From the NCBI GenBank assembly GCA_030603365.1, contig JAUVXV010000002.1:32001-96000 (forward strand): a DNA stretch of 64,000 bases, read 5' to 3'. The stretch comes from Candidatus Heimdallarchaeota archaeon. Lineage in GTDB: Archaea; Asgardarchaeota; Heimdallarchaeia; Heimdallarchaeales; Heimdallarchaeaceae. Positions 263 to 49,366 of this stretch are shown in pieces; within the stretch, counting starts at the first letter, position 1; every line of letters starts with the position of its first letter. The position numbers and the translations under genes were made by a program. The notes below the pieces were generated by a model. The model ran no database searches and was not told the origin of the DNA. It saw nothing but the letters and a program-made list of their open reading frames with translations.

Positions 263-751
263 CTAAATTACATAAAACTGATTTTCCGTTTCTTGAATTA
301 TCTTGTGGAAAAACTCTTGTTTAAACTCCAATGTTTCTGTATTTATGTTTGGATGAAAAGAAACAAAATCAGCATCCCACACTTCTCGATCTACAACAAA
401 AATCACTTTATTTTCTGTATCATTAATAAGTCCCAAAGCTGAAACAGCTCCCGTAGATAATCCCAGGTATTTCTTTAATTCTTCTTCTTTAGCAAAGGTA
501 AGTTTAGAGCTACTTAGGAGAACCTCAAGCTTTCTAAACTCCAGTTTTGTATCTGAAGGAAGAGTAATAAGGAAAAATCTTTTGTCTCCAGTTTTTTCTT
601 TCAAAAATAGATTCTTACAATGTAATCCTGGAATAAAACTGCAGTGTTTTTTAGCCTCTTCTACTGTGAATACAGCTGGATGATAATGAAGCTTATATTC
701 GATATTTCTTAATTTCAGCCATTTTTCCAGTTCTGGTTCCATTATATCCAA
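263..751 (-). CDS. proX: YbaK/ProX (PrdX-like) aminoacyl-tRNA deacylase
   Basis: HPAVFTVEEA, CKNLFL, GAVSALGLIND, FHPNINTETL motifs typical of ProXp-ala editing domains. Confidence 0.88.
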   Translation of the reverse strand: MDIMEPELEKWLKLRNIEYKLHYHPAVFTVEEAKKHCSFIPGLHCKNLFLKEKTGDKRFFLITLPSDTKLEFRKLEVLLSSSKLTFAKEEELKKYLGLSTGAVSALGLINDTENKVIFVVDREVWDADFVSFHPNINTETLEFKQEFFHKIIQETENQFYVI

Positions 752-788
752 GAATAAGAGTCTAAATTTAAGATTTACTTAAGATGAA

Positions 789-875
789 CTATTCATCATC
801 CCAGCTTTGAGTAATCTCACCATTTTCCTCATCCATTTCCACATCACATTTTTCACACTTTCTACGATAAGCAAA
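789..875 (-). pseudogene. orphan 3' end of an unidentified gene (CxxC-containing)
   Basis: Manual translation FAYRRKCEKCDVEMDEENGEITQSWDDE*, preceded by an in-frame stop and with no start codon ahead of the CxxC. Confidence 0.3.
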
Positions 876-1075
876 TCAATGGAGATAACCAACTAGAAAC
901 GCTCCAGCACAATGTTACCAGAAGTAACGGGAAGAAGTGATTATTTATTCTTCATTTGACAGATAATATCCTTAGAAATATTGAAGTAAAAACAACCCAG
1001 TTCTTAAGATTTATAAGTTTTGAAAAGTAAAACCATTAATTAAACAAATTACATAAAAAACGAGGAATTAAGATT

Positions 1076-3022
1076 ATGAAAATTAGAAACAGAATTTTGT
1101 ATTGTTTTCTTATTTATTCTATCTTATTTTTACTAATGAAACCAGTTTATTCATTTGAAAATCAACCACCAGTTGAAATTGAGAACAACCTACTTCATGG
1201 GGAAGTTTCACCAAAATCTATCATCAATAATAAATTGGAATATCTTGAAGATAACACAGATGAGGTAGTTATTCCTACAAAAGCAGAAGAAATATATGGT
1301 TTTATAGAAGTTAGATTGTATGATGATTCTTCTCTCAATCCGATAGAAGGAGCTGAGGTATATCTCTATAATGCTAGTTGGGATTTCCATATGGAAGGCA
1401 TTACTGATGTGAATGGATTCTGCAACTTCACTGGATTAAGTGTAGGAGAGTATGATGCCATTGTTGATACTAGAGGTTTTTACTATCAAAGTCAATATTG
1501 TTATATCGACTATTTAGGAGAAAAAGAGACTTTGGATTTTTACCTTTTTAGACTTCCCCTTCAGAATGTTCGAATAATAAGCCCTTCGTATAGTGCAACA
1601 ATACAAGGTGGTCAAGTCTTAATTGAATATGAACCTCTATATGACACAGACAGAATAAATTTTTTGGAGATTATAGTTAACGATGAATTTGTTTACAGAG
1701 ATTATATGTATTTTCCAGGAACTAATGAAGTCGTTGTTCCCGTCTTTTCAAATGGTACAAAATTTATCGAATTAATTGTAGAATGGTATGACAATTCATA
1801 TGGAATGGACTATATTTCTGTCAATTCAATAGATGTAATTCCCATTTCAGATTTAAAAGAAGGTGATTATCTCAACTACAGAATTAATGAGTATTATACT
1901 TATGAAAATATTGACTACCATTATATCTATGATTTCAATTTTACATTCAACACCTGGATCTCCCCCTTTGAAATAAGCACATCACTTGTTTATCACCATT
2001 ATAGTGACAGCATGGAGTTCGAGTTATCTGAATATTGGCTTATTATCAATGTTTTAAACGGTTTTATCTCTGATGGAAATATGTGGTGGTTAAATTATCA
2101 CTTCTCCTTCCTTTCAGGATTAAGTTGTATGGAAGTCACAGGCTCCCTTCCGACTATAGGTGAAAAGGTTCCTTATTTTAACTGGGATCATATTTACACT
2201 GTAAACGCTTTTGATACATGGAATGGTTTAGATGTAGCTATTCTGAATAGAGGGGATGAAATCATATATATTGATGTTAATTATGGAACCTTTGTTTACT
2301 ATGAGCGTTATTACAATGATGAGAATAATAACATAAGAATCCATTATGTAACAGATACTAATATTGGACCTATTATTGATTCAACAAGTCCAAGCATTGA
2401 TAGTTCTTCAACTCTTAATTTCGAAATTGGTTCATTAGGAAATAACATTAATTGGACAGCCTATGATAATAATCCTTACAACTATACAATCTATAAAGAT
2501 GGTGTGTTTCTCGAAAATGGTACATGGGAATCAGGGTTCATGATTACTACGACCTTAGATGGAACCTCAGTAAGTACTCATGTTTATCTTTTAGAAGTAA
2601 TGGATAGCTTTGGGAATTCAGCAAGCAAAATTATAATAGTTAACATAGAAGATACAATTCCACCAGCTATTGATTCACCAGATGATAAGTTATATGAAGA
2701 AGGTATGACAGGGAACCAAATTATATGGCATCCTATAGATTTAACTTCGAATATTTTTATTGTATACAGAGACGGAGTGTTCCTTAGAGATGGTCTTTGG
2801 ACTGTAGGAGAACCCATTGTAGTTCCTATTGATGGTTTCTCTATAGGTAAACATAACCTTACTATAATTGTATACGATGCTGGAGGAAATTCAGTAACTG
2901 ATACTGTTTTTGTAACTGTAATTGTATTAGTTTCAGAATATAGAATTTACCATAGTCTTTTAATTCTGCTTGTTATGCCTCTTGCCCAGCTAATAATTCT
3001 GATACGAAAAAGAAGGAAATGA
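1076..3022 (+). CDS. secreted surface protein: carboxypeptidase-regulatory-like and Ig-like domains, C-terminal VSEY-TM-basic anchor
   Basis: N-terminal signal peptide; PIEGAEVYL...TDVNG motif; two repeats of D..P.IDS...W...D......IY.DG; ends VSEY + hydrophobic helix + RKRRK. Confidence 0.75.
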   Translation: MKIRNRILYCFLIYSILFLLMKPVYSFENQPPVEIENNLLHGEVSPKSIINNKLEYLEDNTDEVVIPTKAEEIYGFIEVRLYDDSSLNPIEGAEVYLYNASWDFHMEGITDVNGFCNFTGLSVGEYDAIVDTRGFYYQSQYCYIDYLGEKETLDFYLFRLPLQNVRIISPSYSATIQGGQVLIEYEPLYDTDRINFLEIIVNDEFVYRDYMYFPGTNEVVVPVFSNGTKFIELIVEWYDNSYGMDYISVNSIDVIPISDLKEGDYLNYRINEYYTYENIDYHYIYDFNFTFNTWISPFEISTSLVYHHYSDSMEFELSEYWLIINVLNGFISDGNMWWLNYHFSFLSGLSCMEVTGSLPTIGEKVPYFNWDHIYTVNAFDTWNGLDVAILNRGDEIIYIDVNYGTFVYYERYYNDENNNIRIHYVTDTNIGPIIDSTSPSIDSSSTLNFEIGSLGNNINWTAYDNNPYNYTIYKDGVFLENGTWESGFMITTTLDGTSVSTHVYLLEVMDSFGNSASKIIIVNIEDTIPPAIDSPDDKLYEEGMTGNQIIWHPIDLTSNIFIVYRDGVFLRDGLWTVGEPIVVPIDGFSIGKHNLTIIVYDAGGNSVTDTVFVTVIVLVSEYRIYHSLLILLVMPLAQLIILIRKRRK

Positions 3023-3052
3023 AATGAGATTTCATCCTTTTTCTTTTTTCAT

Positions 3053-3241
3053 TCAAAAGATAGAAATTACCTGGTAAGTCTGATAGATCTCTTTTCCTCT
3101 TAAAAACAGATTCTTACAACGTAATCCTGGAATAAAACTGCAATGCTCTTTAGCTTCTTCAACTGTAAAAACAGCAGGATGGGTATGGAGTTTATACTTT
3201 ATTTGGTGAGTATCTAACCATTCTTTCAATGTAGAATCCAA
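3053..3241 (-). pseudogene. truncated 5' copy of the ProX deacylase gene
   Basis: HPAVFTVEEAKEHCSFIPGLRCKNLFL nearly identical to the 263..751 N-terminus, then similarity stops abruptly. Confidence 0.85.
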
Positions 3242-3269
3242 GAAATCACTTCCTCATTTTATTAGAAAA

Positions 3270-6580: not shown

Positions 6581-8047
6581 ATGGCAACAAGTATCGATAC
6601 ATTACCGTTATTAAAGAATGGAGAGGAGTATCTATCTCAGAGTAAGAAGACTCTGAAAGGAATCCACGGAGAGAACTTGCTAGACGTAGCTGTCGCTCCC
6701 GAAATACATGTAAGAATGGCTTTACCCATAAATAAGGCCAGTTTTCACACTCTCCAAAGTATACCCATTGATGATATTATTGACATCTTTTGCGAAGCTG
6801 GAAAAATCTTCACTCAAGATATGCTCATTAATGGTATTTCAACCTCTTTAGACGAATGGAGTGAGCTCATCACCCTTTCTACAGGCATGCCTATCAGGTA
6901 TGTTGAAAATGCACTAAACATGATCCCACACATTTTTACTAAACAACAATTGAGGAGACTCTTACGAGCTAATTCCCCAACAGGTAAATTGGCAATCTTT
7001 GATGATTATGTAGGAGTCAGGGGAAGCACTCGATTTGGTTGGAGTCCCAGAGGAATGAATGTTGGCGTAGGATTACCTGGAAATCATCCAGCTGTAAGCT
7101 TACTTGGAACGTTAATTCCACTGTTTAAGGTCCCAGCTATAATCCGAGCTAGTTCTAGTGAACCTTTTACTTCATTTAGAATCTGCAAAGCCCTTTGGGA
7201 AGCAGGCTTACCTCATGAATCTCTCTTCCACTTTGTTACTGATCACAGTACCGTTGACACCATTGTGCGTCAATCTGACCTCGGTATTATATTTGGCAAC
7301 GAATGGATTTTGAAAGCCTATGAGAATAATTCCAAAATCAAGACTTATGGTCCTGGTCGTTCTAAAGTTCTTCTAGAAATCGAAGATATGTCACCTACAC
7401 ACTTTGACTTAGCTGTTGAATTAACCTACCAAAGCATCCATTACGATGGTGGAAGAGGCTGTATCAATTCTAGTGGAGTAGTTTACAACTCACCTCATAT
7501 GTACGAAGAGTTCAAGGAAAAACTAGCAAACAAACTAGCCTCTCTTGAACCTCTTGACCCTATGAATCCTCGTGCAGAAATTCCTGCTATGGATCCAGAT
7601 GGAGCTCGAGGGATGTATAAGTTCATCAAGAGTAGAATGACTGGAAAAATCAATAATCTCACTGCTGATATTAGAGGAGAAGAAAACTTCCTGCATATAG
7701 AAGACAATCTAGCTTATCTCATGCCTACACTTCTAGAAGTTGATGAAGATCATTCTATGAGAACAGACGAATATCCATTCAGTTTCGGTGTAATTTGCCG
7801 ACCTGATGATTATTTAGTTGAAGAATTAGTTGAAGACACTTTATCCTTATCCTACCTAACTGATAATCCTTCTAACGCTAGAAGATTACTTAACATCCCC
7901 TCAATCAAGAAAGTCTTCGTTAATGACCAATCATTCAAAATGGATATAGCTGCACCCCACGAGGGGCATATGTGCGATTTCCTCTATGGTTCTAAAGCGT
8001 CAAATTATGATGGCATAAACAATATCTTGAAACCTAAAGAATATTAA
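6581..8047 (+). CDS. aldehyde dehydrogenase / acyl-CoA reductase (LuxC-like) family protein
   Basis: LPGNHP, YGPGRSK, catalytic GRGCINSS, DEYPF, PHEG motifs. Confidence 0.8.
   Translation: MATSIDTLPLLKNGEEYLSQSKKTLKGIHGENLLDVAVAPEIHVRMALPINKASFHTLQSIPIDDIIDIFCEAGKIFTQDMLINGISTSLDEWSELITLSTGMPIRYVENALNMIPHIFTKQQLRRLLRANSPTGKLAIFDDYVGVRGSTRFGWSPRGMNVGVGLPGNHPAVSLLGTLIPLFKVPAIIRASSSEPFTSFRICKALWEAGLPHESLFHFVTDHSTVDTIVRQSDLGIIFGNEWILKAYENNSKIKTYGPGRSKVLLEIEDMSPTHFDLAVELTYQSIHYDGGRGCINSSGVVYNSPHMYEEFKEKLANKLASLEPLDPMNPRAEIPAMDPDGARGMYKFIKSRMTGKINNLTADIRGEENFLHIEDNLAYLMPTLLEVDEDHSMRTDEYPFSFGVICRPDDYLVEELVEDTLSLSYLTDNPSNARRLLNIPSIKKVFVNDQSFKMDIAAPHEGHMCDFLYGSKASNYDGINNILKPKEY
8018..8047 (+). repeat. 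direct repeat copy 1: current 3' end of the ALDH gene (copy 2 at 12810..12839)
   Basis: aacaatatcttgaaac-ctaaagaatattaa vs aacaatatcttgaaac-aataagaagactaa; 16 bp exact, 25/30 overall, TAA aligned. Confidence 0.7.
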
Positions 8048-8140
8048 AAAAATTAGAGAAAAAGAAACTATTGTTTCTTCTTTTTTCTTTTTAATTATAT
8101 ATTTAATGAGACAAATATGAAATCTTTTTGGAAAGAAATT

Positions 8141-8602
8141 TCATTCCATTTTTCTTAAAAGCTTTAGATCCACTTTCAGCTCACTCTTTATTAAACTAGA
8201 AATTTCCTTCGTAAATTCCTTTTCTTCCAAGAAATATACAGGTATACCATACAAAACAGCTATTGAGAGGTTGAAGCAATCTGGAAGAGCAACTGGAATT
8301 TTACATTTGATTAAAGCAGCCAAATCATCTATTTCTTTGTCTCGAATTACTGCAAAATTACTAACTATATGTTTTACGATTTCTTTAGCTTTCGACCATC
8401 CTTTAGTTCTACAAACAATATACAAGAGCTCTGTTTTCGTAAGAAACGAAATATAAATTTGAGAAATTTGTTTATTTCTAAAAAGATTTTTATCAAGAAA
8501 TTCTTTGTATCTTTTTTGTTTAGTATTTTCTGAATCTATCGTAAGATATTCGATAATTAAACCTGTATCAACGACTGCAACTTTCTTTTGTTCACTTTTC
8601 AT
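8141..8602 (-). CDS. vapC: PIN-domain (VapC-like) toxin
   Basis: VVDT..., TELLY, LPDCFNLSIA acidic PIN motifs; overlaps the upstream small gene. Confidence 0.8.
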   Translation of the reverse strand: MKSEQKKVAVVDTGLIIEYLTIDSENTKQKRYKEFLDKNLFRNKQISQIYISFLTKTELLYIVCRTKGWSKAKEIVKHIVSNFAVIRDKEIDDLAALIKCKIPVALPDCFNLSIAVLYGIPVYFLEEKEFTKEISSLIKSELKVDLKLLRKME

Positions 8603-8831
8603 TTGTCTTGTAATCCTCTCTTAGTTCTCTGTAAGCTTCTTTAGCTTCTTTCCCTAATATTCCCTGCAATTCTTCAAGAGTCTTTTTTGGAATAACTGGA
8701 GAGCTTCTTGATAAGAGATGTTCAATTACTTCATCATATGTTAATGAACGTCCAACTTCTTTTTCTAGTCTGTTTTTTTCCAGAAAAAGTGCTTTTTTTG
8801 TTTCCTCTTTTATTTGAATTGTTGTAGCCAC
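8592..8831 (-). CDS. putative antitoxin (VapB-like, RHH-type N-terminus); likely GTG start at 8831
   Basis: ATTIQIKEETKKAL...LTYDEVIEHLL pattern typical of archaeal antitoxins; upstream of and overlapping the PIN gene (ORF track gives 8849). Confidence 0.7.
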   Translation of the reverse strand: MATTIQIKEETKKALFLEKNRLEKEVGRSLTYDEVIEHLLSRSSPVIPKKTLEELQGILGKEAKEAYRELREDYKTNEK

Positions 8832-8872
8832 TATAGTCACTATATCCACTATAGTAACTTACTATTTATAGT
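8829..8872 (-). promoter_or_regulatory. TA promoter/operator: three CACTATA repeats at 9-bp period, two ACTATAGT palindromes, TATA box
   Basis: CACTATA at 8829, 8838, 8847; ACTATAGT at 8830 and 8848; minus-strand TATAAATA within 8861-8872. Confidence 0.55.
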
Positions 8873-8902
8873 TTTTCAACATATTATCTTCAAAGAGCCA
8901 TT

Positions 8903-9112
8903 ATTGACTCTCTTCCCTCAGAAGGATACTACCTCTATGTGATTGTGGCTAGTGACGGAGTAAGAAACAGCACTCATTCAAATTGTGAGCATGTGGAATA
9001 CAAAGTTCCTCATCTGCGAGAATTCAGTATTGTTTCAGGATTGATACTTGCAGCTTTTACTTTAGTATTTGTAGTTACTAGAATACGCAAGAAGAATTTT
9101 AAACTGAACTAG
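8903..9112 (+). pseudogene. orphan 3' end (A) of a paralog of the 9339..11366 surface protein
   Basis: Open frame IDSLPSEGYYLYVIVASDGVRNSTHSNCEHVEYKVPHLREFSIVSGLILAAFTLVFVVTRIRKKNFKLN*, no start; followed by the same ACTAGT/T-tract terminator. Confidence 0.9.
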
Positions 9113-9223
9113 TTCTAATTAGTTCTTCTTTTTTTGATTTTTTCCTTCTTTCTAAATCATTTTGATTATTATCTATTGTTTGGATAAAAGATTACAACCA
9201 GATTTAAGAGAAGAGAATAAAGA

Positions 9224-9239
9224 TTCCACACTTGTGGAA
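9224..9239. promoter_or_regulatory. palindromic candidate operator TTCCACA-CT-TGTGGAA
   Basis: Perfect 7-bp inverted repeat about 100 bp upstream of the surface-protein start. Confidence 0.35.
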
Positions 9240-9338
9240 GAGAAATGCAAAACATTTTTATTTAAAACAACTATTAGTAGCAATTCGAAAAATACGTTTA
9301 ATATGAATTAAATTGATAATTAAAAAAAGGTTGATATT

Positions 9339-11366
9339 ATGAAAAAGAAAAAAATGAAACTATCTATGAGCTTAAGTGTTCTCATTATTGGTTTTTTAAT
9401 AACTACTTCTATGCTTAATGTAGTTAACACAAAAGCTCTAGTAGAGGAAAAACATGATCAGTACAACACAGATTACTTTGATAGATCTACTTGGAAATGG
9501 TCCATCACAGAAGTCATTTCCACAGAAAGTACAGGTGAGTCTCTCAACCCTTCTCTTGCTGTCGATTCTGCAGGGAATGTACATGTAGCTTGGGAAAGTG
9601 TTGATGTAGGAGGAACATTGAGTGACCACAAAATTTCCTACAAGCGTTGGGATGCTTTTTCACAGTCTTGGACGACAACAGAATTAGTTTCTACTGAAAG
9701 TACATATGGCTCTTTTTTTCCTTCGCTTGCTGTCGATTCTACTTGTACTGTCCACATAGCGTGGGAAGATTGGACTGATTATGCGGGGAGTGGAACAGAT
9801 TATGATGTCTTCTACAAACGATTGGACGCTTTTACCTCCTCTTGGACCAGCACAGAAGTAGTTTCAACAGAAAGTACTAGTACTTCTTGGTATCCTTCTC
9901 TTGCTACTGATTCTGCAGGGAATGTACACATAGCGTGGGAAGATTATTCTGATTATGCTGGGGCTGGAACAGATATCGATGTTTTCTATAAACGCTGGGA
10001 TGATTCTACCTCCTCATGGAGCACTACAGAAGTCATTTCCACAGAAAGTACAGGAACTTCTAGTGTTCCTTCTCTTGCTGTAGATACTGTAGGGAATGTA
10101 CACATAGCGTGGCCAGATCTGACTAATTATGCTGGGAGTGGAACAGATAGGGATATCTTCTATAAACGCTGGGATGCTTCTGCTTCCTTATGGATCACTA
10201 CTGAAGTCGTTTCCACAGAAAGTACAGGAAATTCTGGGAATCCTTCACTTGCTGTGGATGCTAAAGGGAATGTACACATAGCGTGGCGAGATTGGACTGA
10301 TTATCTTAGTTCTGGAACTGATATCGATGTTTTCTATAAACGCTGGGACTCTTCAACTTCCTCATGGACTACGACAGAAGTCGTTTCCACAGAAAGTACA
10401 GGAACTTCTTATATTCCTTCTCTTGCTGTAGATACTGTAGGGTATGTACACATAGCATGGCATGATCTGACTGATTATGCAGGAGCAGGACCAGGCGAGG
10501 ATATTTTCTACAAACGCTGGGACTTTTCTACCTACTTACGAACCACCACAGAAGTCGTTTCCACAGAAAGTTCAGATGAGTCTCTCAACCCTTCTCTTGC
10601 TGTAGATACTGCTGGGAATGTGCATATAGCTTGGTATGATTTTACTGATTATTCTGGGAGTGGATGGGAATATGATATTTTCTATAAACAATTCGCAGGT
10701 CCTCCTGCAGCTCCTGAATTAGCTTTTATTGCCCCTAATCCAACTAAACTCACTACTATCTATCTAGACTGGAATAATGTACTTAGGGCAACCTTTTACC
10801 ATGTTTATCGCTCCACCTCTTACATCTGGTCTGTGGAAGGACTCATCCCCCTTACTGGTGTCTCTTCTAGTGATTATGTTGATAATGTACCAATTGAAGG
10901 ATTCTATTACTACGTTATTGTAGCAGAGAACTTTGTAGGGAATAGTACTCATTCCAATTGTCAATATGTCGAAGTTGTTTTTCCTGACCTTGAAGCTCCT
11001 GAATTAGCTCCTATTCTACCCAATCCTACGGATTCAAGTAGTATTTCTTTAGTATGGGATAGTATTGATGGGGCAATAGAATATTATGTCTTCCGATCTG
11101 CTTCATACATTTGGTCAGTTGAAGGATTAATCCCCCTAACTACTGTGGTTACAGCTTCCTATATCGACTCTCTTCCCAATGAAGGATACTACTTCTATGT
11201 GATCGTAGCTAATGACGGTGCAAGAAACAGCACTCATTCAAATTGTGAATATATTGAGTATAAAACTGTTCATGTACGGGAATTTACCATAGCTTCACTG
11301 ATACTAGGTGTGTTTGTTATCTCACTTGTAATCTTGAAAACTCGTAAAAAAAGTAAACTGTACTAG
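9339..11366 (+). CDS. surface protein: 7 tandem ~57-aa repeats (probable 7-bladed beta-propeller) + 2 FN3-like domains + VREF-TM-basic anchor
   Basis: Seven TEVVSTES..S..PSLAVD..GNVHIAW.D repeats; two APELA.I.PNP...W...YHVYRS FN3-like units; signal peptide. Confidence 0.85.
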   Translation: MKKKKMKLSMSLSVLIIGFLITTSMLNVVNTKALVEEKHDQYNTDYFDRSTWKWSITEVISTESTGESLNPSLAVDSAGNVHVAWESVDVGGTLSDHKISYKRWDAFSQSWTTTELVSTESTYGSFFPSLAVDSTCTVHIAWEDWTDYAGSGTDYDVFYKRLDAFTSSWTSTEVVSTESTSTSWYPSLATDSAGNVHIAWEDYSDYAGAGTDIDVFYKRWDDSTSSWSTTEVISTESTGTSSVPSLAVDTVGNVHIAWPDLTNYAGSGTDRDIFYKRWDASASLWITTEVVSTESTGNSGNPSLAVDAKGNVHIAWRDWTDYLSSGTDIDVFYKRWDSSTSSWTTTEVVSTESTGTSYIPSLAVDTVGYVHIAWHDLTDYAGAGPGEDIFYKRWDFSTYLRTTTEVVSTESSDESLNPSLAVDTAGNVHIAWYDFTDYSGSGWEYDIFYKQFAGPPAAPELAFIAPNPTKLTTIYLDWNNVLRATFYHVYRSTSYIWSVEGLIPLTGVSSSDYVDNVPIEGFYYYVIVAENFVGNSTHSNCQYVEVVFPDLEAPELAPILPNPTDSSSISLVWDSIDGAIEYYVFRSASYIWSVEGLIPLTTVVTASYIDSLPNEGYYFYVIVANDGARNSTHSNCEYIEYKTVHVREFTIASLILGVFVISLVILKTRKKSKLY

Positions 11367-11517
11367 TTCTTACTAGTTCTTCTTTTTTTTTCCTTTAGAT
11401 CATCCTAAAGATGTTGAAAAAAAGGAACTGTCTAATGTTATTTTATAAAAATCGCATCCAAATGATCAAGTGTTATCAGAGATAAAGTTCAAATAGGATT
11501 TTACTAATAGTAAATAG

Positions 11518-11913
11518 GTGTTATCTGTGAATAGAGCTCAAATTGAGAACACTATAGAAAAAATTGTAGTAGTTGCTCAAAAAGATGATTCAATAACTGG
11601 AATCATTTTATATGGTTCCTACAATCAGAATGAATATTTTGAAGACATTGATATAGCTCTAGCTTTCCAAGAAGATACTCCAAAACAAATGATGTTCTCC
11701 AAACGAATCGATTTTTCCAGTAAGTTTCCTGATTTTTTTGATTTTCAAGTTTTAAATTTGCTCCCTCTTGCAGTTCAAAAGGAAGTTCTAGAAGGAAGAG
11801 TTCTTTATGAAACCAGACCTATTTACGACTTAGCTTATCAAATTATACTTGAATTTGAGGATTTTGAGAAATATAGGACCCAGTATGTGAAAGGTGTAAT
11901 GTTTGAAAGTTGA
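11518..11913 (+). CDS. mntA: minimal nucleotidyltransferase (MNT) antitoxin
   Basis: LYGS...EDIDIA motif; overlaps the downstream HEPN gene. Confidence 0.82.
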   Translation: MLSVNRAQIENTIEKIVVVAQKDDSITGIILYGSYNQNEYFEDIDIALAFQEDTPKQMMFSKRIDFSSKFPDFFDFQVLNLLPLAVQKEVLEGRVLYETRPIYDLAYQIILEFEDFEKYRTQYVKGVMFES

Positions 11914-12328
11914 GCATATCATAGCCAAATTCGATCAAATTAGAGAAAATATTCAATTAATCGAAGAAAATTTATCTAAAAGTTATGTCGAATTTGAGAA
12001 ACTAGGTATTGTTAAAGATGGCATTTACAAAAGATATGAATATAGTATTGAACTAGTAATCGATATAATATCTTTGATTAATGCAGAATTAAAATTAGGT
12101 ATTCCTAATGGAACTAGTGACATAATAAATCAACTTCTCAAAAATGAAATTTTAGATGAGGGATTAGCAGATATTATTAGAGGAATGAAAGGTTTTCGAA
12201 ATATCCTTGTTCATAGATATGGGAAACTTGATGACAAACTTGCGTATAAGATTATTGTAGAGAATCTATCAGATTTTCAACTATTAGAAAATCAAATAAT
12301 GACTGTGCTTAAAAGAATGCAGAAATAA
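11903..12328 (+). CDS. hepT: HEPN (DUF86) RNase toxin
   Basis: GFRNILVHRY (RX4HXY) motif. Confidence 0.88.
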   Translation: MKVEHIIAKFDQIRENIQLIEENLSKSYVEFEKLGIVKDGIYKRYEYSIELVIDIISLINAELKLGIPNGTSDIINQLLKNEILDEGLADIIRGMKGFRNILVHRYGKLDDKLAYKIIVENLSDFQLLENQIMTVLKRMQK

Positions 12329-12379
12329 AAGAATTTCAGGTTTTTTGTAAAATTTGTATGGTAATTTAAATAAAATACT

Positions 12380-12762
12380 TTGAAGCTCCTGAATTATCTC
12401 CTTTTTTACCCAATCCTATAGAATCAGACTGTATCTCTTTAGTCTGGGACAATATTGATGGAGCAATAGAATATTATGTCTACAGGTCTGCTTCGTATAT
12501 TTGGTCAGTTGAAGGATTAATCCCCCTAACTACTGTGGTTACAGCTTCCTATATCGACTCTCTTCCCAATGAAGGATACTACTTCTATGTGATCGTAGCT
12601 AATGACGGTGCAAGAAACAGTACTCATTCCAATTGCGAATATATTGAGTACAAAACAGCTCATGTCCGGGAATTTACCCTAGTTTCTGGTTTGATACTTG
12701 GTGCCTTTGCTTTAGTGTTTGTAGTTACTAGAATACGCAAGAAAAAGTCTAATCCGAACTAG
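12380..12762 (+). pseudogene. orphan 3' end (B) of the 9339..11366 surface-protein family (last FN3 + anchor)
   Basis: Aligns with 10990..11366 at offset 1390; open frame EAPELSPFLPNP...VREFTLVSGLILGAFALVFVVTRIRKKKSNPN*, with no start codon at its 5' boundary and no signal peptide. Confidence 0.9.
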
Positions 12763-12809
12763 TTTTTACTAGTTCTTGCTTTTTTGTTTTTTTTACCTTC
12801 AGATATGTT

Positions 12810-12839
12810 AACAATATCTTGAAACAATAAGAAGACTAA
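12810..12839 (+). pseudogene. displaced, decayed 3' end of the ALDH gene
   Basis: Translates NNILKQ*ED* versus NNILKPKEY* of 6581..8047. Confidence 0.65.
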
Positions 12840-12870
12840 CCGATATTTTTCTAATTTTTCTCCTACAATA

Positions 12871-12987
12871 TTATCTCCTTAGAACTTCACCTGGAAGTCT
12901 TTTATTTTGTTTTCCTTTTTCTACCACTATTTCTCCATTTACTATCACAAATTCTATTCCTTCTGAAACTTGATGAAGTTCTTCAAA
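12871..12987 (-). pseudogene. displaced 3' end of the D-aminoacylase gene
   Basis: FEELHQVSEGIEFVIVNGEIVVEKGKQNKRLPGEVLRR* versus FEEPHQFSEGIEYVIVNGEIVVEKGKQNTNMPGRVIKHV* (28/38 identical). Confidence 0.92.
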
Positions 12988-12989
12988 TC

Positions 12990-13892
12990 TTATTTTATAT
13001 TTCTGATGAGTCCTTCATTAGTGCTTTTCATCGTTTTCATAATGTTTGACAGTGTTTGAAGTAATTTAGATCTATTTTCCATCGTTATTATTAATTTCAA
13101 CATTTGATCTTGCGAAAATCCTCCTAGCGTACCATGTATTAATCCTCTTGATAATCGATAAACTGACTTACTTGTGATATTTGGATTTGTTCTATGTAAT
13201 GAAACAACAAACTCTTTCCAAGTTTTCTCATATTCTCTGGTTGTTTTCGTAATAGCTTCTATGATAAATTTGGAAAATAGATCTTTACTTTTCTTAGTTA
13301 AACGTTTTTTATTGATTCTACTTTTCATACGACCACGGAGAAACATTCCAGTTCCAGCTAGAGCAACTGTTAGAGAAACTCCTGCAATTATTATCCACAA
13401 ATAGTCATCAAGCCAAGTTCTAGGTTCAAGAGCGAAGAAAACTAACCAGTCTGACTCATATCCTTCTATTGTTGTTTGACCTCCTATCTCTCGATGTACA
13501 TTGAATCTGATTCTCATTTCTAGGTTCACTTTCTCCCAAGCAGGATCATATTCATAAGAAGAAATTGTGTTTAAAGTCTGACCTGTTTGTGTTAGATTTT
13601 CACTAATGATCTCAGTATTTGAGAAAAGAGCACCTAATCTATAATCTATTTCTAAATTGAAAATACATACAGCATCAGAGATAAGTTTAACCAGATTTAT
13701 TTCTATCTCAAACTCATTTGAACCATCTTTTGATTTAACAGAATCAATGTTTACTATAATATCAATAATGGTTTCATTATCAGTGTCGAATGTATGAGTC
13801 ATAGTTGCTCCAAAAACAGAAGTAGACAATGTTGAGATTGTTAGAAATGTGATTAAAATAGAAAAAAGTAGTTTTTTATCTCTAAATCTCAT
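12990..13892 (-). CDS. single-pass membrane protein with signal peptide and basic cytoplasmic domain
   Basis: Signal peptide, extracellular beta-rich domain, central TM, K/R-rich tail. Confidence 0.65.
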   Translation of the reverse strand: MRFRDKKLLFSILITFLTISTLSTSVFGATMTHTFDTDNETIIDIIVNIDSVKSKDGSNEFEIEINLVKLISDAVCIFNLEIDYRLGALFSNTEIISENLTQTGQTLNTISSYEYDPAWEKVNLEMRIRFNVHREIGGQTTIEGYESDWLVFFALEPRTWLDDYLWIIIAGVSLTVALAGTGMFLRGRMKSRINKKRLTKKSKDLFSKFIIEAITKTTREYEKTWKEFVVSLHRTNPNITSKSVYRLSRGLIHGTLGGFSQDQMLKLIITMENRSKLLQTLSNIMKTMKSTNEGLIRNIK

Positions 13893-13962
13893 TACATAAC
13901 CAAGGTTTCTTTAGTAAAAAAACTTTCGTCCTTAGATTTAACAGCTTGTCAGATTATAACTC

Positions 13963-15591
13963 TTAAACATGTTTTATTACTCTACCTGGCATATTCGTAT
14001 TTTGTTTTCCTTTCTCTACTACTATCTCTCCGTTGACTATTACATACTCTATTCCTTCTGAGAACTGGTGTGGTTCTTCGAATGTTGCTTTATCATATAT
14101 TCTCTCATAATCAAAAATCGTGATATCAGCCCACATTCCTTCTCTAATCAACCCTCTATCAAACAGTCCTAGTTTCTGAGCAGATAAGCTTGTCATCTTC
14201 CTTACAGCTTCTTCAAGTGTTAACAAACCTTCTTCCTTGACATATTTTCTGATAATTCTTGGAAAAGTACCATAAAATCTAGGATGAGGTTTACCATAAG
14301 CCATGATTCCTTCAGGAGCTACTCCCCAACCATCGGTTCCTATTGAGGTATACTTGTTTTTCATTATTCTTCTGATATCTTCTTCACCCATGCTACTGAC
14401 AGTTATCCCTACTTCTCCTTCATTTTCTAGCAGCATATCAAAGATAGTATCTCTTGGATCAGCTTTCCCCTTGATTTTAGTTATTTCATCAACATTCTTT
14501 CCTTCTACATCCTTCCATTCATCTACTTTCACATCGGAGATAAAGATTTTATCAGGTCCTGTTTCTCTATACCAATCATCAAATCCTTCACTTTCATTAA
14601 CCATATCTATTTTGATTTTCTCCCTTAGTTCTTCTGAAGAGAGTCTTTTTAGTGTTTCATCTATCCCACCTTCCATAACCCACGGAGGTAGAAGCGCTGA
14701 CATAGAAGTAGCTCCGCGATTGTAGGGATATTGATCACAGGTTATATCCAAGCCTCTTGTATTTGCTTCTTCTACTAGTTTTAGTGATTCTATACTCTTC
14801 CCCCAATTTCCTTTCCCTGAAGCTTTGAAGTGAGCAATTTGTCCACCACGGCAACCTGATTTCTCAACAATTTCTATGAACTCTCTAACTGCATCAAGCA
14901 ATCCTGAACCTTCATTTCTGATATGAGAAAAATATAATCCTTGGTAATCTGCAACAATCTTTGCTAATTCAATTATCTCTTCAGTTTTTGAGTATACTTG
15001 AGGAGAATAAATTAAACCTGTACTCATCCCAAAAGCTCCTGCCTCCATTGCTTCTTTAGTGAGCTCTTGCATCTCATGTATTTCTATATCTGTTGGGATT
15101 CTGTCTTCATATCCTGGACCTGCAGCTATTCTAATAGGTCCGAAACCAACCAAAGGAACTATATTAGAAGAGATTTTTCCCTTTTCTACCTCTTCCAAAT
15201 ATTCCTTAAAAGTTCTCCATGTTATTTCGGCTGGTTTCACTCCAGGAGGAGCAACCATATCTAAATCTCGCTTAAAAATATCAAAGCCTTTCTCACTTAC
15301 AGGAGCCAGAGAATAACCACATTGACCAACAACTGATGTTGTAATTCCTTGCATAATTATTGACTGTAATTTGTTGTCATAAAGTATGCCTGTATCTGAA
15401 TGGCTGTGCATATCAATGAAACCAGGGCTAATTATTAGTCCGGAAGCATCAATTGTCCTTGTTGCTGAATCTTCTATTCTGTATTGTAATTTAACTATTT
15501 TACCATCTTTTACTGCAATATCTGATTTAAAACCTAAATTGCCAGTTCCATCAAATATTTTTCCATTTTTAATAAGAATATCAAAACTCAT
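13963..15591 (-). CDS. N-acyl-D-amino-acid deacylase (amidohydrolase superfamily)
   Basis: PGFIDMHSHSD, GQCG, STGLIY, HIRNE, HPRFYGTFPR, WADITIFD motifs. Confidence 0.92.
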   Translation of the reverse strand: MSFDILIKNGKIFDGTGNLGFKSDIAVKDGKIVKLQYRIEDSATRTIDASGLIISPGFIDMHSHSDTGILYDNKLQSIIMQGITTSVVGQCGYSLAPVSEKGFDIFKRDLDMVAPPGVKPAEITWRTFKEYLEEVEKGKISSNIVPLVGFGPIRIAAGPGYEDRIPTDIEIHEMQELTKEAMEAGAFGMSTGLIYSPQVYSKTEEIIELAKIVADYQGLYFSHIRNEGSGLLDAVREFIEIVEKSGCRGGQIAHFKASGKGNWGKSIESLKLVEEANTRGLDITCDQYPYNRGATSMSALLPPWVMEGGIDETLKRLSSEELREKIKIDMVNESEGFDDWYRETGPDKIFISDVKVDEWKDVEGKNVDEITKIKGKADPRDTIFDMLLENEGEVGITVSSMGEEDIRRIMKNKYTSIGTDGWGVAPEGIMAYGKPHPRFYGTFPRIIRKYVKEEGLLTLEEAVRKMTSLSAQKLGLFDRGLIREGMWADITIFDYERIYDKATFEEPHQFSEGIEYVIVNGEIVVEKGKQNTNMPGRVIKHV

Positions 15592-23397: not shown

Positions 23398-24227
23398 TAG
23401 AGAGAAACCTTTTTTTCTATGAAAGTAATCTTATTGAGTTAGTGAATAAAATGACAAAGTTTCAAGAAGATATTTGTATCCACAAAGGGGATTTCCTAAT
23501 TGTCAAAACAAAGGACATAGAATTCAACAATCCCACAGTATTTGTTACTTTTCCAACTCCTGGTATTATTGGTCCAATAGTAGCTAGACAAATGATTTCT
23601 AGTTTGGGATTAGAAGAAATAGGTTTCTTTAAGTCTGATGCCCTTAGTCCTGTTACAATTTTCATGGATAATGTTCTGAAGCACCCATATTTGCTTTATT
23701 CCAACAAAGAAGGTACCATCCTTTTGATAACTATAGAGTATCCGGTTCCTCAAGAAGCGTTTTTAGTTGTAGCTGAGGGATTAATCAATTGGATAGAGAA
23801 ACATGTTAGAGCAGAAAAAATAGTTTGTTTAGATGGTGTTCCAGTCAAACTTAAGCCAGAAAAACCTGTTGTTATAACAGCAGCAGAAAAAGGGGTAGCA
23901 GAAGAACTAAAGCAATATGGCACAGACATATACGAACATGGTGTCGTTTTAGGTCTTTCAGGAGCATTTACTAGTGAAGCTTTACTCCGTGATATTGTTG
24001 GTATGGTTCTAATGACACCTGCAACAGCTGAATTTCCTGATCCAGAAGCTGCTGTCAACCTGATCAAAGTGATAAACAGTTATTTCAAATTCGACATTGC
24101 AACAGAAGAGTTACTTGCTGAAGCTACCAAGATTAAGCAACAGTTAGCAATGATAGCTGAGAAACAACAGACTATGCAACAACCTATGGTCCCACCGCCA
24201 AGAAGAATGAGAGAAGGATATGTATAA
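23394..24227 (+). CDS. PAC2-family proteasome assembly chaperone (likely start 23451)
   Basis: FPTPGIIGPI, GLSGA, FPDPEAA motifs; C-terminal GYV. Confidence 0.85.
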   Translation: MIERNLFFYESNLIELVNKMTKFQEDICIHKGDFLIVKTKDIEFNNPTVFVTFPTPGIIGPIVARQMISSLGLEEIGFFKSDALSPVTIFMDNVLKHPYLLYSNKEGTILLITIEYPVPQEAFLVVAEGLINWIEKHVRAEKIVCLDGVPVKLKPEKPVVITAAEKGVAEELKQYGTDIYEHGVVLGLSGAFTSEALLRDIVGMVLMTPATAEFPDPEAAVNLIKVINSYFKFDIATEELLAEATKIKQQLAMIAEKQQTMQQPMVPPPRRMREGYV

Positions 24228-24350
24228 TCTTATTCTCCCTATTTTTTTATTTTAATGAAAAGTTTTTTTTTGTTTTAAACCTCGAGAAATTGCTGACAAA
24301 TTATATCGCCAAATTTTTTTTCTAAAAGAAATGAAAAGATAGAACAAAAA

Positions 24351-24734
24351 TCACTTAGATGTTTTTCCACAGTTACTGCAAAATTTCATTCCAGATTCTA
24401 ATTTCATCCCACAAAATTCACAGAAAGTTGTTTCCAGAACGTCCTTAGAAGAAGTGGATTCCACATCTTTCTCCCTTTTTGTTTTTAAACCTTTGATTTC
24501 ATGACCCTCTAGAATATCATATGTGCTTCTACGTGTTTTTGAGGTTTCTTGTCCAGTTTTCTTCAGAAAATTGAAGAATGCTATAACACCTAGAATAACG
24601 AAAAACATGATTACTCCCATCAAAATATAGAATATAATCTTTTCAGTAACAATTCCTAATACCAATAAAGTTACCAAAACTAAAATTAATCCAGTTATTA
24701 CACCATTTATAGAACGACGACTTCGAATTCTCAT
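24351..24734 (-). CDS. 2-TM protein with C-terminal zinc ribbon
   Basis: FCEFCG...FCSNCG; ATG at 24734 preferred over the ORF-track TTG at 24875. Confidence 0.7.
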   Translation of the reverse strand: MRIRSRRSINGVITGLILVLVTLLVLGIVTEKIIFYILMGVIMFFVILGVIAFFNFLKKTGQETSKTRRSTYDILEGHEIKGLKTKREKDVESTSSKDVLETTFCEFCGMKLESGMKFCSNCGKTSK

Positions 24735-24907
24735 ATAGGTACATAGAAAATAATGAACCAATATAAAGACTCCTTTGAGTATTATGTAAATAGCAGTTTC
24801 TCTCTGTCGATATATGTTCCCTGAAAAAGTAAAATAAATTATGGATAATAAACTAAATTCTTTGATGAATAACAATCTTTATTTTTAATCTCAGAACATT
24901 CTTTTTA

Positions 24908-42724: not shown

Positions 42725-42766
42725 AATTTGAAATTAAAGTATTGAAAATTCTTAGGAAGACTAATC

Positions 42767-43507
42767 TTACTTTTTTTCATAGGGTTTATCTCTCAGCTTT
42801 TCTACTGTTCCTATTTTTTCTGCCCAATCAATCCAATTCTTGTTTCCACCTTCAATATAAGATCCTAAGGGCATAACAACAACTTCTAGTTTCAGAAGCT
42901 CTTCTTTTGGAATCACTTCCCCATTTGAGATTTTCTCAACTGCGGTTTTAAATGCTGAATCCAGTATTTTAGTTGGTTTTCCATAGATCTGATATCTTAC
43001 ATCATCTTCTGGCAATTGAGCAACTTGTTCTAATAGACCTGGTACTGTATGCATTGCAAAAGTTCCTGCTGCTCCTATAGGGAAACCTCCTGCCCAAGTA
43101 AAATCATTTTTCTTAGCAAATTGCTTGTAGATTTTTAAAGCTATATTGTTATGATAATATTCGAGATAACCTGCACAGGAGATGGCTAGAAGAAGTCTTT
43201 TGTCATCATTAATTTTCCCTTCTTGTTTTGCAGTAGAAACAGTATCCATTAGTTTTATTGTCATATATGGTGCAGAGTCAATATAAAGTGGTGAAGAGAG
43301 TATAATGATACTACTCTCGTTAATTGAAGCAATCATTTCTTCAATCTTTTCAGAGTTTTTCAGAGTCTTATAAGTGTGAAAACTTTTCACAGTTATTCCT
43401 CTATCTTCCAATAAACTAGATACATAATTACCCAATGAATAGGATGCACTTTTCTCTCCTCTAGGGCTACACATTAGAAATGTTGCATGCTTAGTCATTT
43501 TCCTCAC
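42767..43507 (-). CDS. flavodoxin-like NAD(P)H-dependent oxidoreductase
   Basis: SPRGEKSAS, SPLYIDS. Confidence 0.75.
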   Translation of the reverse strand: MRKMTKHATFLMCSPRGEKSASYSLGNYVSSLLEDRGITVKSFHTYKTLKNSEKIEEMIASINESSIIILSSPLYIDSAPYMTIKLMDTVSTAKQEGKINDDKRLLLAISCAGYLEYYHNNIALKIYKQFAKKNDFTWAGGFPIGAAGTFAMHTVPGLLEQVAQLPEDDVRYQIYGKPTKILDSAFKTAVEKISNGEVIPKEELLKLEVVVMPLGSYIEGGNKNWIDWAEKIGTVEKLRDKPYEKK

Positions 43508-49027: not shown

Positions 49028-49066
49028 AATTATTGTATACCAATCAGCTGATAATTATCATTTTAA

Positions 49067-49144
49067 ATCTTTGTAGGAATCATATTGGCTGCTTTCGTAT
49101 TAGTAGTCTTCAAGACTAAAGATTGGAAGAAAGACGTAATGTAA
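49067..49144 (+). pseudogene. orphan TM + basic C-terminal fragment
   Basis: IFVGIILAAFVLVVFKTKDWKKDVM*, preceded by an in-frame stop. Confidence 0.3.
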
Positions 49145-49366
49145 AAAAAATTGTGCACAACAAAGCTATGTGCAACTCTTTTCTATTTTTCTAAACGAAG
49201 TTCTTCAAAGAATTGATTTGAATTTTCAGTTACATTTTTCTTTATGTTAGTTCCAAGTTCTGTAAGTGTCTCAAATGATTTGTAAGTTTTTCCTTCTAGA
49301 CTTCTAAGGAACTAATAAATTCTTTAATGAAAATTAGAGTGGTGTAAACATGTTTTAGCTTCTTTG

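What the first reader, a model, noticed from the sequence alone, without database searches (positions are those of the whole stretch)
8018..14082. Fossil convergent gene junction: stacked gene-end-replacement insertions with no mobile-element enzymes
Seen: the middle of this block holds a decayed ALDH 3' end (12810-12839, +) facing a D-aminoacylase 3' end (12871-12987, -), 31 bp apart. The live ALDH ends 4.8 kb to the left and the live D-aminoacylase ends 1 kb to the right. Left cargo is VapBC, a beta-propeller surface gene with two orphan tails, and MNT-HEPN. Right cargo is one membrane protein. Inference: the ancestral layout was ALDH ->/<- D-aminoacylase. Each insertion supplied a new, diverged 3' end for the resident gene and displaced the old one. 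The duplicated ends are diverged and of unequal length (30 bp, 117 bp, 210 bp, ~380 bp), unlike target-site duplications or fixed att sites. This fits homology-facilitated illegitimate recombination of DNA from relatives, a mechanism established in naturally transformable bacteria. It would be a route for accessory gene flow in an Asgard archaeon that I do not recognise as described.
Basis: partly seen in the sequence, partly recalled or inferred. Interest (0 to 1): 0.85.

Follow-up and report, generated by a model that had tools for sequence, protein, structure and literature searches.

The report
Displaced gene ends at insertion hotspot
In a Heimdall-group Asgard archaeon, accessory genes were inserted between two converging enzyme genes along with spare copies of those genes' ends, stranding the old ends as a fossil junction; about twenty similar sites in the genome suggest gene capture without an integrase, by ordinary recombination with relatives' DNA.

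Summary
An orphan ALDH end (12810-12839) and an intact orphan amidohydrolase ("D-aminoacylase") tail (12871-12987) sit 31 bp apart. Together they align, spacer included, with the empty convergent junction of congener G013 and with the live junction of G023. G020 and G013 have the two genes directly convergent (gaps of 10 and 35 nt).

The locus is a genus-wide hotspot. The cargo is modular: VapBC 8075-8907, a propeller surface gene, MNT-HEPN 11471-12343, and a membrane-gene unit 12988-13953. These modules are 83-97% identical to copies in congeners whose core genes are only about 68-70% identical.

For the amidohydrolase, the orphan is the ancestral tail and the live tail is foreign. For ALDH the polarity is unresolved.

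My census of the genome found 23 similar sites: 16 displaced tails and 7 displaced heads. The repeats are 69-603 nt long with a median identity of 82%. They share no motif, the cargo holds no integrase, and the genome has one tyrosine recombinase.

The best explanation is one-ended homologous recombination plus an illegitimate join, or a single crossover of a circularised fragment, using DNA from congeners. This is inferred, not shown.

Bacterial analogues exist: Rhs and T6SS "C-terminal displacement" and homology-facilitated illegitimate recombination (HFIR). This scan had already noted the same pattern on other pieces of this genome.

The parts
6581..8047 (+). ALDH-superfamily gene (488 aa), the left core flank of the hotspot. 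Found only in this genus among the 41 genomes searched.
   Evidence: Pfam Aldedh/LuxC. Orthologues at 63-91% aa identity in 15 congeners.
8018..8047 (+). Live ALDH end, the left copy of the 30-nt repeat.
   Evidence: 25/30 identical to 12810-12839. The shared 16-mer is unique to these two places in the window.
8075..8907 (-). VapBC module: PIN toxin 8141-8602 and an 85-aa partner 8592-8849. It is a discrete transferable unit.
   Evidence: 97.0% nt identity to G008 and 89.4% to the MAG C4.bin.22. The unit ends are the same in three different contexts. PIN domain.
8902..9143 (+). Orphan surface-protein tail A: TM anchor plus terminator hairpin, truncated at its 5' side.
   Evidence: 78-81% identical to the other two tails. 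Its junction with the VapBC unit has about 2 nt of microhomology.
9339..11366 (+). Beta-propeller surface protein with seven ~174-nt blades, an Fn3-like tail and a C-terminal TM anchor.
   Evidence: SBBP/BNR hits. Repeat families D1-D4. 87.6% nt identity to G008's second copy of the gene.
11471..12343 (+). MNT-HEPN toxin-antitoxin module (MNT 11518-11913, HEPN 11903-12328).
   Evidence: Polbeta and HepT-like domains. 93% nt identity over 882 nt to G008. Metagenome contigs start and end their matches at 11471 and 12343.
12377..12806 (+). Orphan surface-protein tail 2: 122 codons still open, plus the terminator.
   Evidence: 89% identical to the live tail, with a 122-nt perfectly identical patch (11109-11230 = 12499-12620), which indicates gene conversion. 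86% collinear with G023.
12810..12839 (+). Orphan ALDH end. With the 31-nt spacer 12840-12870 it forms the left half of the fossil junction.
   Evidence: The same orphan lies behind a surface-gene tail in G023.
12871..12987 (-). Orphan amidohydrolase tail (38 codons plus stop, frame intact). It is the ancestral resident tail.
   Evidence: It is orthologous to G023's live tail.
12988..13953 (-). Membrane-protein unit (gene 12990-13892, 300 aa, full length).
   Evidence: 76-84% nt identity, with the same unit ends, at three other chromosomal sites in G006, G013 and G022. Those sites have no flanking repeats.
13963..14082 (-). Live amidohydrolase tail (39 codons plus stop), probably imported together with the membrane-protein unit.
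   Evidence: 72-77% identical to G020, G023 and G016, against 77-83% for the preceding 351 nt.
13963..15591 (-). Amidohydrolase (D-aminoacylase-like, 542 aa), the right core flank of the hotspot.
   Evidence: Pfam Amidohydro_3 and NCBIfam NF006560. Orthologues in 18 congeners.

Best explanation
The interval between the convergent ALDH-like and amidohydrolase genes is an insertion hotspot shared by a genus of Heimdall-group Asgard archaea.

Small self-contained accessory modules were added here by the cell's general recombination and repair machinery, using DNA from other species of the genus. The modules are two toxin-antitoxin pairs, a TM-anchored surface-protein gene and a membrane-protein gene.

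In each event that left a footprint, one end of the incoming DNA paired with the last 30-400 nt of a resident gene. The other end was joined without homology. Equivalently, a circularised fragment carrying a gene end plus cargo integrated by one crossover.

The gene stays intact with one copy of its end. A second, already diverged copy is stranded beyond the cargo. Selection keeps only insertions that leave both flanking genes whole. That is why the repeats always include a gene terminus.

Shown: the fossil junction, the empty and intermediate states in relatives, the modularity of the cargo and its inter-species identity, the lack of a recombinase or a common site, and the recurrence across the genome.

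Inferred: the recombination route itself, the identity of the donors, and the order of the left-hand events.
For: Empty and intermediate sites:
- The site is empty in G020 (10 nt gap) and G013 (35 nt gap).
- G023 holds the intermediate state: surface-gene tail | ALDH orphan | spacer | live amidohydrolase. It is 86% collinear with window 12380-12991.

Cargo versus core identity:
- Cargo is 97% (VapBC), 93% (MNT-HEPN), 88% (propeller gene) and 82% (membrane unit) identical to G008.
- ALDH and the amidohydrolase are only 70% and 68% identical to G008.
- The same units sit in unrelated contexts elsewhere.

Polarity of the amidohydrolase tails:
- The orphan tail fits the gene body's relationships to relatives, whereas the live tail's identity falls below the preceding 351 nt.
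- Tail and body are phylogenetically discordant among relatives. G023-G013 is 85% in the tail and 68% in the body. G013-G012 is 74% in the tail and 88% in the body.

Junctions:
- Cargo/orphan junctions show 0-2 nt of microhomology.
- A 122-nt identical patch shows that homologous recombination is active between the tail copies.

Genome-wide census:
- 16 of 18 same-strand orphan tails lie downstream of their parent gene (p=6.6e-4). Orphan heads run 7 upstream to 4 downstream.
- The repeats are 69-603 nt long and 70-96% identical. None is near-identical.
- Cargo is mostly single surface or membrane genes.
- At a second locus (C3), relatives have the genes directly adjacent.

Enzymes and sites:
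- No motif is shared among the repeats.
- There is one PF00589 hit in the genome, on another contig.
Against: - No recombination intermediate, donor genome or circular form was observed.
- At three other loci, which copy is closer to relatives was mixed. A strict 'orphan = resident' model does not predict this.
- Five congeners carry inserts at this hotspot with no convincing orphan ends. Most exchange may therefore be ordinary double crossover.
- The membrane-unit junction at 12987/12988 exists only in this assembly.
- No control genome was run through the same census. I cannot say the frequency is unusual.
Confidence: 0.6

Rival explanations
1. These are decayed or trans-mobilised site-specific integrative elements. 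An integrase recognising an att site inside the gene's 3' end inserted each cassette, the element supplied the replacement end, and the repeats are attL and attR.
For: The geometry is the same as for elements that integrate into gene 3' ends. Stacking resembles tandem integration. Both repeat pairs contain a 16-nt identical run that could pass for a core site.
Against: There is no integrase in the block, and only one PF00589 hit in the whole genome, on contig C11. The 24 repeated segments share no sequence. Repeat lengths range from 30 to 603 nt, and none is near-identical. The same cargo units sit elsewhere without flanking repeats. The VapBC and membrane units have different flanks in every context.
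Confidence: 0.1
2. Nuclease-driven homing. A selfish endonuclease cuts other strains' alleles of a gene end. Repair from the carrier's DNA then copies in the cargo plus a resistant replacement end, as in the mobile endonuclease ORFs of fungal mitochondria.
For: The predicted footprint is the same: a replacement end, cargo, then a displaced end. Earlier notes of this scan (e1-5503652, e1-5503641; not tested here) propose a zinc-finger nuclease at rps11 in this genome. A double-strand break at the repeat boundary also fits the amidohydrolase junction.
Against: Pfam and NCBIfam find no DNA endonuclease in this block. The only nuclease-type folds are PIN and HEPN, which typically act on RNA in toxin-antitoxin pairs. 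The membrane unit carries a single membrane protein. Cargo genome-wide is mostly surface proteins.
Confidence: 0.1
3. Local duplication followed by divergence in place. The gene end was duplicated in tandem, unrelated DNA accumulated between the copies, and the spare copy decayed.
For: One census case (G000:C15:18345-21589) does look like a tandem segmental duplication. The order of the orphans is head-then-tail, and the two cargo genes are each other's only paralogues.
Against: The amidohydrolase orphan is more similar to G023's live tail (84%) than to its own genome's live tail (75%). The orphan pair preserves the native junction and spacer. The cargo is near-identical to copies in distant congeners. 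No repeat pair is young, meaning above 96% identical.
Confidence: 0.05
4. Assembly artefact: the block is a chimera of two co-assembled strains.
For: The genome is a metagenome-assembled one. Many congener contigs break at this locus. Other samples hold the modules in other orders.
Against: The longest identical run between the repeat copies is 16 nt, too short to mislead a k-mer assembler. The tail-2/ALDH-orphan/spacer/amidohydrolase-tail order is reproduced in an independent MAG of another species, G023. The propeller-MNT-HEPN-tail order is reproduced in G008. Contigs at 100% identity from run X1 bridge 12251-12484 and 12499-12731.
Confidence: 0.04

Closest known systems
C-terminal displacement arrays of Rhs, CDI and T6SS effector-immunity loci (Jackson et al. 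2009; Kirchberger et al. 2017, PMC5361080)
   Same: A new 3' gene end plus linked cargo arrives by horizontal transfer and displaces the old end downstream. Repeated events stack the orphans. No integrase is involved. HFIR is the proposed route.
   Different: In those loci the replaced tips are variable toxin domains with immunity genes, in bacteria. Here the replaced ends are conserved termini of housekeeping-type enzymes and the conserved anchor of a surface protein. The cargo is unrelated to the gene being repaired. 5' ends are displaced as well. The host is an Asgard archaeon.
Homology-facilitated illegitimate recombination in naturally transformable bacteria (as cited in PMC5361080, which reports experiments in Acinetobacter, Streptococcus and Pseudomonas)
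   Same: There is one homologous anchor, a foreign segment, and a joint with little or no homology. The donors are related organisms.
   Different: As I recall it (not checked here), HFIR usually deletes recipient DNA between the anchor and the joint. Here the joint lies inside the anchored region, so the gene end is duplicated. DNA uptake, RadA dependence and frequency are unknown for this archaeon.
Integrative elements that insert into the 3' end of a gene and carry a diverged replacement end (for example prophage e14 in E. coli icd; own knowledge, not checked here)
   Same: The gene stays intact through an element-borne end, and a diverged direct repeat of the gene end flanks the insert.
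   Different: Those elements encode an integrase and use one fixed site. Here there is no integrase, no common site and variable repeat length.
Horizontal-transfer hotspots, or flexible genomic islands, between conserved core genes. For cold-seep archaea, see the variable hotspots rich in toxin-antitoxin and defence genes in ANME-1 (PMC13385816)
   Same: A fixed interval between core genes holds different accessory genes in each lineage, enriched for toxin-antitoxin and surface functions.
   Different: In the passages I searched, that paper does not mention remnants, truncated genes, integrases or homologous recombination. Here the orphans give a readable order of events.
Mobile endonuclease ORFs of fungal mitochondria (Allomyces atp6). 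This lead came from earlier notes of this scan plus my own knowledge, and was not checked here.
   Same: The cargo is inserted at a gene's 3' end together with a foreign replacement end, and the resident end is displaced.
   Different: Those elements encode the endonuclease that drives the event. No DNA endonuclease was found in this block.

Membership tests
Homology-facilitated illegitimate recombination footprint | A homologous anchor next to non-homologous incoming DNA | tested here: met
   Gene-end repeats of 30, 117 and about 420 nt flank cargo that has no counterpart at the empty sites of G020 and G013.
Homology-facilitated illegitimate recombination footprint | An illegitimate joint with zero to a few nt of microhomology at the far end | tested here: met
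   Membrane unit / amidohydrolase orphan: about 1 nt. VapBC unit / tail A: about 2 nt. These were read against other copies of the units.
Homology-facilitated illegitimate recombination footprint | Donor DNA from a related organism | tested here: met
   The modules are 82-97% identical in congeners whose core genes are 68-70% identical. Tail and body are discordant among relatives. The actual donors were not identified.
Homology-facilitated illegitimate recombination footprint | The displaced copy is always the recipient's own | tested here: inconclusive
   This holds for the amidohydrolase. Results were mixed at C3_48505, C12_40209 and C10_44801.
Homology-facilitated illegitimate recombination footprint | Dependence on a RecA/RadA-type recombinase and on DNA uptake | not testable with these tools
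   The organism is uncultured.
Site-specific integrative element (tyrosine or serine recombinase) | A recombinase gene inside or beside the element | tested here: not met
   None among the ORFs of 8018-14082 that were scanned. There is a single PF00589 hit genome-wide, at C11:22647-23126. Serine recombinases were not searched.
Site-specific integrative element (tyrosine or serine recombinase) | A common att core shared by independent insertions | tested here: not met
   No cross-similarity or shared 9-mer among the 24 repeated segments.
Rhs/CDI/T6SS C-terminal displacement array | A conserved 5' region with variable toxic 3' tips and cognate immunity genes | tested here: not met
   The replaced ends are conserved enzyme termini or a conserved TM anchor. 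The cargo is toxin-antitoxin, surface and membrane genes that are not fused to the gene.
Rhs/CDI/T6SS C-terminal displacement array | Displaced 3' ends stacked downstream on the same strand | tested here: met
   True at this locus. Genome-wide, 16 of 18 same-strand orphan tails lie downstream.
Integron cassette array | An IntI integrase, an attI site and attC sites bounding the cassettes | tested here: not met
   No integrase. Unit ends differ between module types. The only recurring end is the surface-gene terminator hairpin.
Homing-endonuclease mobile ORF | The cargo encodes a DNA endonuclease specific for the uninterrupted allele | tested here: inconclusive
   No DNA-endonuclease family was detected, only PIN and HEPN domains. 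The 300-aa and 85-aa proteins have no family match. No fold search was done.

The most novel reading that the evidence does not exclude
Heimdall-group Asgard archaea may have a general route of gene capture that needs no integrase. A break in or beside a gene terminus is repaired from a congener's DNA. The repair copies in a neighbouring accessory gene together with a foreign gene end and leaves the old end as a scar. Because the flanking repeats allow later excision and re-insertion by plain homologous recombination, each 'gene end plus cargo' would behave as a mobile cassette without any element-encoded enzyme. This would be a main channel for turnover of surface-protein and defence genes in these archaea.
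Probability: 0.3. Interest if true: 0.75.

Novelty: new variant of a known kind. Interest (0 to 1): 0.55.

Why it matters
How Asgard archaea acquire genes is an open question that bears on models of eukaryote origins. The integrated elements I found described for them in the literature searched here carry their own integration machinery or target tRNA genes. This locus gives a dated series of events, with empty, intermediate and doubly filled states in sister species. It shows toxin-antitoxin, surface and membrane genes moving between species with about 70% core identity and no integration enzyme. About twenty further scars in one genome make the process countable and testable in strain-resolved long-read metagenomes. 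The scars also warn annotators that short intact 'gene fragments' in these genomes are recombination footprints, not pseudogenes of lost paralogues.

Tried and rejected
- **Aloposons.** I recalled them as possibly similar. The paper shows they are tRNA-targeting transposons with giant genes, so they are not relevant.
- **Silent-cassette antigenic variation of the surface gene.** Rejected. The orphans are the conserved anchor and terminator, not the variable propeller. Orphans of this tail family occur only at this locus.
- **Viruses as vehicles.** Scans of viral contigs with the membrane protein, HEPN and PIN found no relatives.
- **Metagenome scans.** The membrane protein found nothing. The amidohydrolase found only relatives at 57% identity or less, and none has an ALDH match on the fetched locus. 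The adjacency is therefore genus-specific and these loci gave no help.
- **Read support.** Read laying returned only short Logan contigs.
- **Polarity test at three other loci.** Which copy resembles relatives was mixed.
- **Site-by-site mosaic test for a single-crossover origin at C3_48505.** Uninformative.
- **G000:C15:18345-21589.** It first looked like a second fossil junction. The order of the orphans and the paralogous cargo point to a tandem segmental duplication instead.
- **Flanking repeats around the membrane unit in G006, G013 and G022.** None found.
- **A typed-frame error** was corrected.


Full report
**What is there.** The region holds these features, left to right:
- An ALDH-superfamily gene, 6581-8047 (+).
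- A VapC(PIN) gene with its partner, on the minus strand.
- A 57-codon orphan ORF.
- A 675-aa beta-propeller surface protein with a C-terminal TM anchor.
- An MNT-HEPN pair.
- A second orphan tail.
- A 300-aa membrane protein, on the minus strand.
- A 542-aa amidohydrolase of the D-aminoacylase type, 13963-15591 (-).

- The ALDH end 8018-8047 recurs at 12810-12839 (25/30 nt). The shared 16-mer is unique to those two places in 64 kb, with none expected by chance.
- The last 39 codons of the amidohydrolase recur at 12871-12987 as 38 open codons plus a stop.
- The surface-gene tail (10987-11403) recurs at 8902-9143 and 12377-12806.

**The fossil junction is genuine.** The ALDH gene occurs only in the window's genus among 41 genomes searched.
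- In G020 and G013 the two genes are directly convergent, 10 and 35 nt apart.
- Window 12808-12987 aligns to G013's junction at 78% over 184 nt. The match includes the spacer and an early TAA stop in the ALDH end. The orphan ALDH end is therefore an intact allele, not a decayed one.
- G023 shows the intermediate state: surface-gene tail, the same ALDH orphan, the spacer, then its live amidohydrolase. It is collinear with window 12380-12991 at 86% over 617 nt.
- The tail now stranded in this genome was therefore the working tail before the membrane-gene unit arrived.
- Other congeners carry 1.1 kb (G016; G021 and G015), about 5 kb (G003, G005) or rearranged inserts. G008, G012 and G023 carry surface-gene arrays.
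- Several congener contigs break at the ALDH end.

This is a genus-wide hotspot.

**The cargo is modular and moves between species.**
- Against G008, ALDH and the amidohydrolase are 70% and 68% identical at the nucleotide level.
- The VapBC unit (8075-8907) is 97.0% identical to G008, MNT-HEPN 93%, the surface gene 87.6% and the membrane unit 82%.
- The VapBC unit has the same ends in three contexts. One is beside a TnpB gene in the MAG C4.bin.22, at 89% identity.
- The membrane unit (12988-13953) has the same ends at three other chromosomal sites in G006, G013 and G022, without flanking repeats. Its protein is full length.
- Contigs from other cold-seep and sediment samples join the modules in yet other orders, at the same unit boundaries.
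- Record titles of the relatives read 'Candidatus Heimdallarchaeota archaeon'.

**Polarity.**
- The amidohydrolase orphan is 84, 81, 80 and 78% identical to the tails of G023, G016, G013 and G020. The live tail is 75, 76, 74 and 77% identical.
- The live tail also falls below the identity of the preceding 351 nt: 72-77% against 77-83%.
- Across relatives, tail and body disagree. G023-G013 is 85% in the tail and 68% in the body. G013-G012 is 74% in the tail and 88% in the body. Gene ends at this site have therefore been swapped repeatedly.
- For the 30-nt ALDH pair, polarity cannot be read.

**Junction anatomy.**
- The cargo/orphan joints carry 0-2 nt of microhomology.
- The VapBC unit still carries a remnant of a surface-gene terminator at its left end.
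- A 122-nt perfectly identical patch lies inside otherwise about 85% identical tails. This shows ongoing gene conversion between them.

**Genome-wide census.** I called 3,096 ORFs and searched their last and first 45 residues against the 3.65-Mb genome.
- At E<1e-5, 19 orphan tails lie within 20 kb of their parent gene. Sixteen are on the same strand downstream, 2 are upstream and 1 is on the opposite strand (16 of 18, p=6.6e-4).
- Orphan heads run 7 upstream to 4 downstream.
- In the 23 oriented cases the repeats are 69-603 nt long (median 105) and 70-96% identical (median 82%). None is near-identical.
- Cargo is 0.2-15 kb, usually one gene. It is often a TM-anchored surface protein (NosD/beta-helix, LVIVD, SBBP).
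- No recombinase or transposase family was found among the 19 cargo proteins scanned.
- At C3, two stacked insertions are absent from G023, G020 and G013, where the three host genes abut.
- One case is better read as a tandem segmental duplication.
- No control genome was analysed, so I cannot say the count is exceptional.

**Enzymes.** The block contains no integrase or transposase. The genome has one tyrosine-recombinase hit, on another contig. The repeated segments share no motif. Multi-copy TnpB genes exist but not at these junctions.

**Mechanism.** The most economical reading is general recombination with congeners' DNA.
- One version is break repair. A break lies at the repeat boundary, the broken gene invades a donor fragment, and synthesis runs through the donor's gene end and the adjacent cargo. 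The new end is then joined to the other chromosomal end without homology.
- The other version is one crossover with a circularised 'gene end plus cargo' fragment.
- Both give a direct, born-diverged repeat that includes the gene terminus. Selection explains why only termini are seen.
- The mixed polarity at other loci fits the crossover version slightly better, but the data are thin.

The rival explanations are an integrase acting in trans, a homing nuclease, divergence in place and misassembly. Each is contradicted by at least one direct observation. They are listed with their odds in the rival explanations.

**Comparison with what is known.**
- Stacked displaced 3' ends attributed to HFIR are described for Rhs, CDI and T6SS loci in bacteria (PMC5361080).
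- Variable hotspots rich in toxin-antitoxin genes are described in cold-seep ANME-1.
- The Asgard integrated elements described in the two papers I read either carry integration machinery or target tRNA genes.
- I found no paper describing displaced gene ends in Asgard archaea.
- Earlier notes of this scan reached similar conclusions on other pieces of this genome. My census was made independently of them.

**Limits.**
- The 12987/12988 junction rests on this assembly alone.
- The donors are unknown.
- The recombination route is inferred.

Noticed in passing
window 11109-11230 and 12499-12620: A 122-nt perfectly identical patch lies inside the live and orphan surface-gene tails, which are otherwise about 85% identical. 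It indicates recent gene conversion between the two copies.
   Followed up: yes
G000:C3:47500-53100 (locus L073): A second stacked case in a co-directional gene row. The order is gene 52479-53075, a 905-aa cargo gene, the first gene's orphan tail abutting gene 48505-49392, a 222-aa TM cargo gene, then the second gene's orphan tail. G023, G020 and G013 have the three host genes directly adjacent. G008 has a diverged homologue of the 905-aa cargo plus an orphan tail at the same site.
   Followed up: partly
G000:C12:36990-42916 (locus L070 covers part): A stacked convergent locus. The full gene 41720-42916 is followed by a 300-aa cargo gene and a 130-aa ORF that is only a copy of the full gene's C-terminus. 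Next come an orphan tail of the opposing gene (96% identical, 133 nt), a NosD/beta-helix surface gene, and a second orphan of the first gene's tail. The whole junction appears duplicated around the cargo.
   Followed up: partly
G000:C15:18345-21589 (locus L071 7346-10590): Two paralogous 165-aa and 163-aa TM genes are separated by an orphan head followed by an orphan tail. The order fits a tandem duplication of a segment running from one gene's tail to the next gene's head, not a fossil junction.
   Followed up: partly
L069:2-1264 and G000 copies such as C15:16907-18253 and C15:28557-29867: A multi-copy TnpB gene of about 420 aa (OrfB_IS605 plus the Cas12f-like TNB domain), with at least 12 paralogues in G000. 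Several sit at contig ends. One copy lies beside the VapBC unit in the MAG C4.bin.22.
   Followed up: partly
amidohydrolase tails of G013, G023, G020, G016 and G012 (loci L041, L023, L022, L042, L048): The last 117 nt of the amidohydrolase falls into allele classes that cut across the gene-body relationships. G023-G013 is 85% in the tail and 68% in the body. G020-G016 is 89% in the tail and 79% in the body. Gene ends are exchanged even where no orphan remains.
   Followed up: partly
window 263-3247: My census recovered an orphan 5' end at 3116-3247 (66% aa identity over 44 residues) of the gene at 263-751 (-). A 648-aa TM-anchored surface gene lies between them. This is the head-end counterpart of the finding.
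   Followed up: partly
window about 24220-24878 versus G013:C120 (locus L058): The site that holds the membrane-protein unit in G013 corresponds to this interval of the window. Here G000 carries a different small gene (C15:56351-56875) from a multi-copy family. This is probably another exchange site.
   Followed up: no
window 8075, 8907, 9061, 9236, 11471 and 12343, in runs X2, X4 and X5: Contigs from other cold-seep and marine-sediment metagenomes join the same modules in other orders. Examples are 8907 joined to 9236 without tail A, 12343 joined back to 9061, and 9122 joined back to 8075. The joins are at the same unit boundaries and at higher depth than the window's own organism in those runs.
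   Followed up: partly
window 12756-12775 (and the equivalent positions after the other two tails): A conserved hairpin plus T-run (GAACTAGTTTTTACTAGTTC, then TTGCTTTTTT) follows each surface-gene tail and marks the right edge of every surface-gene module. The same edge is seen in G012 and G023.
   Followed up: partly
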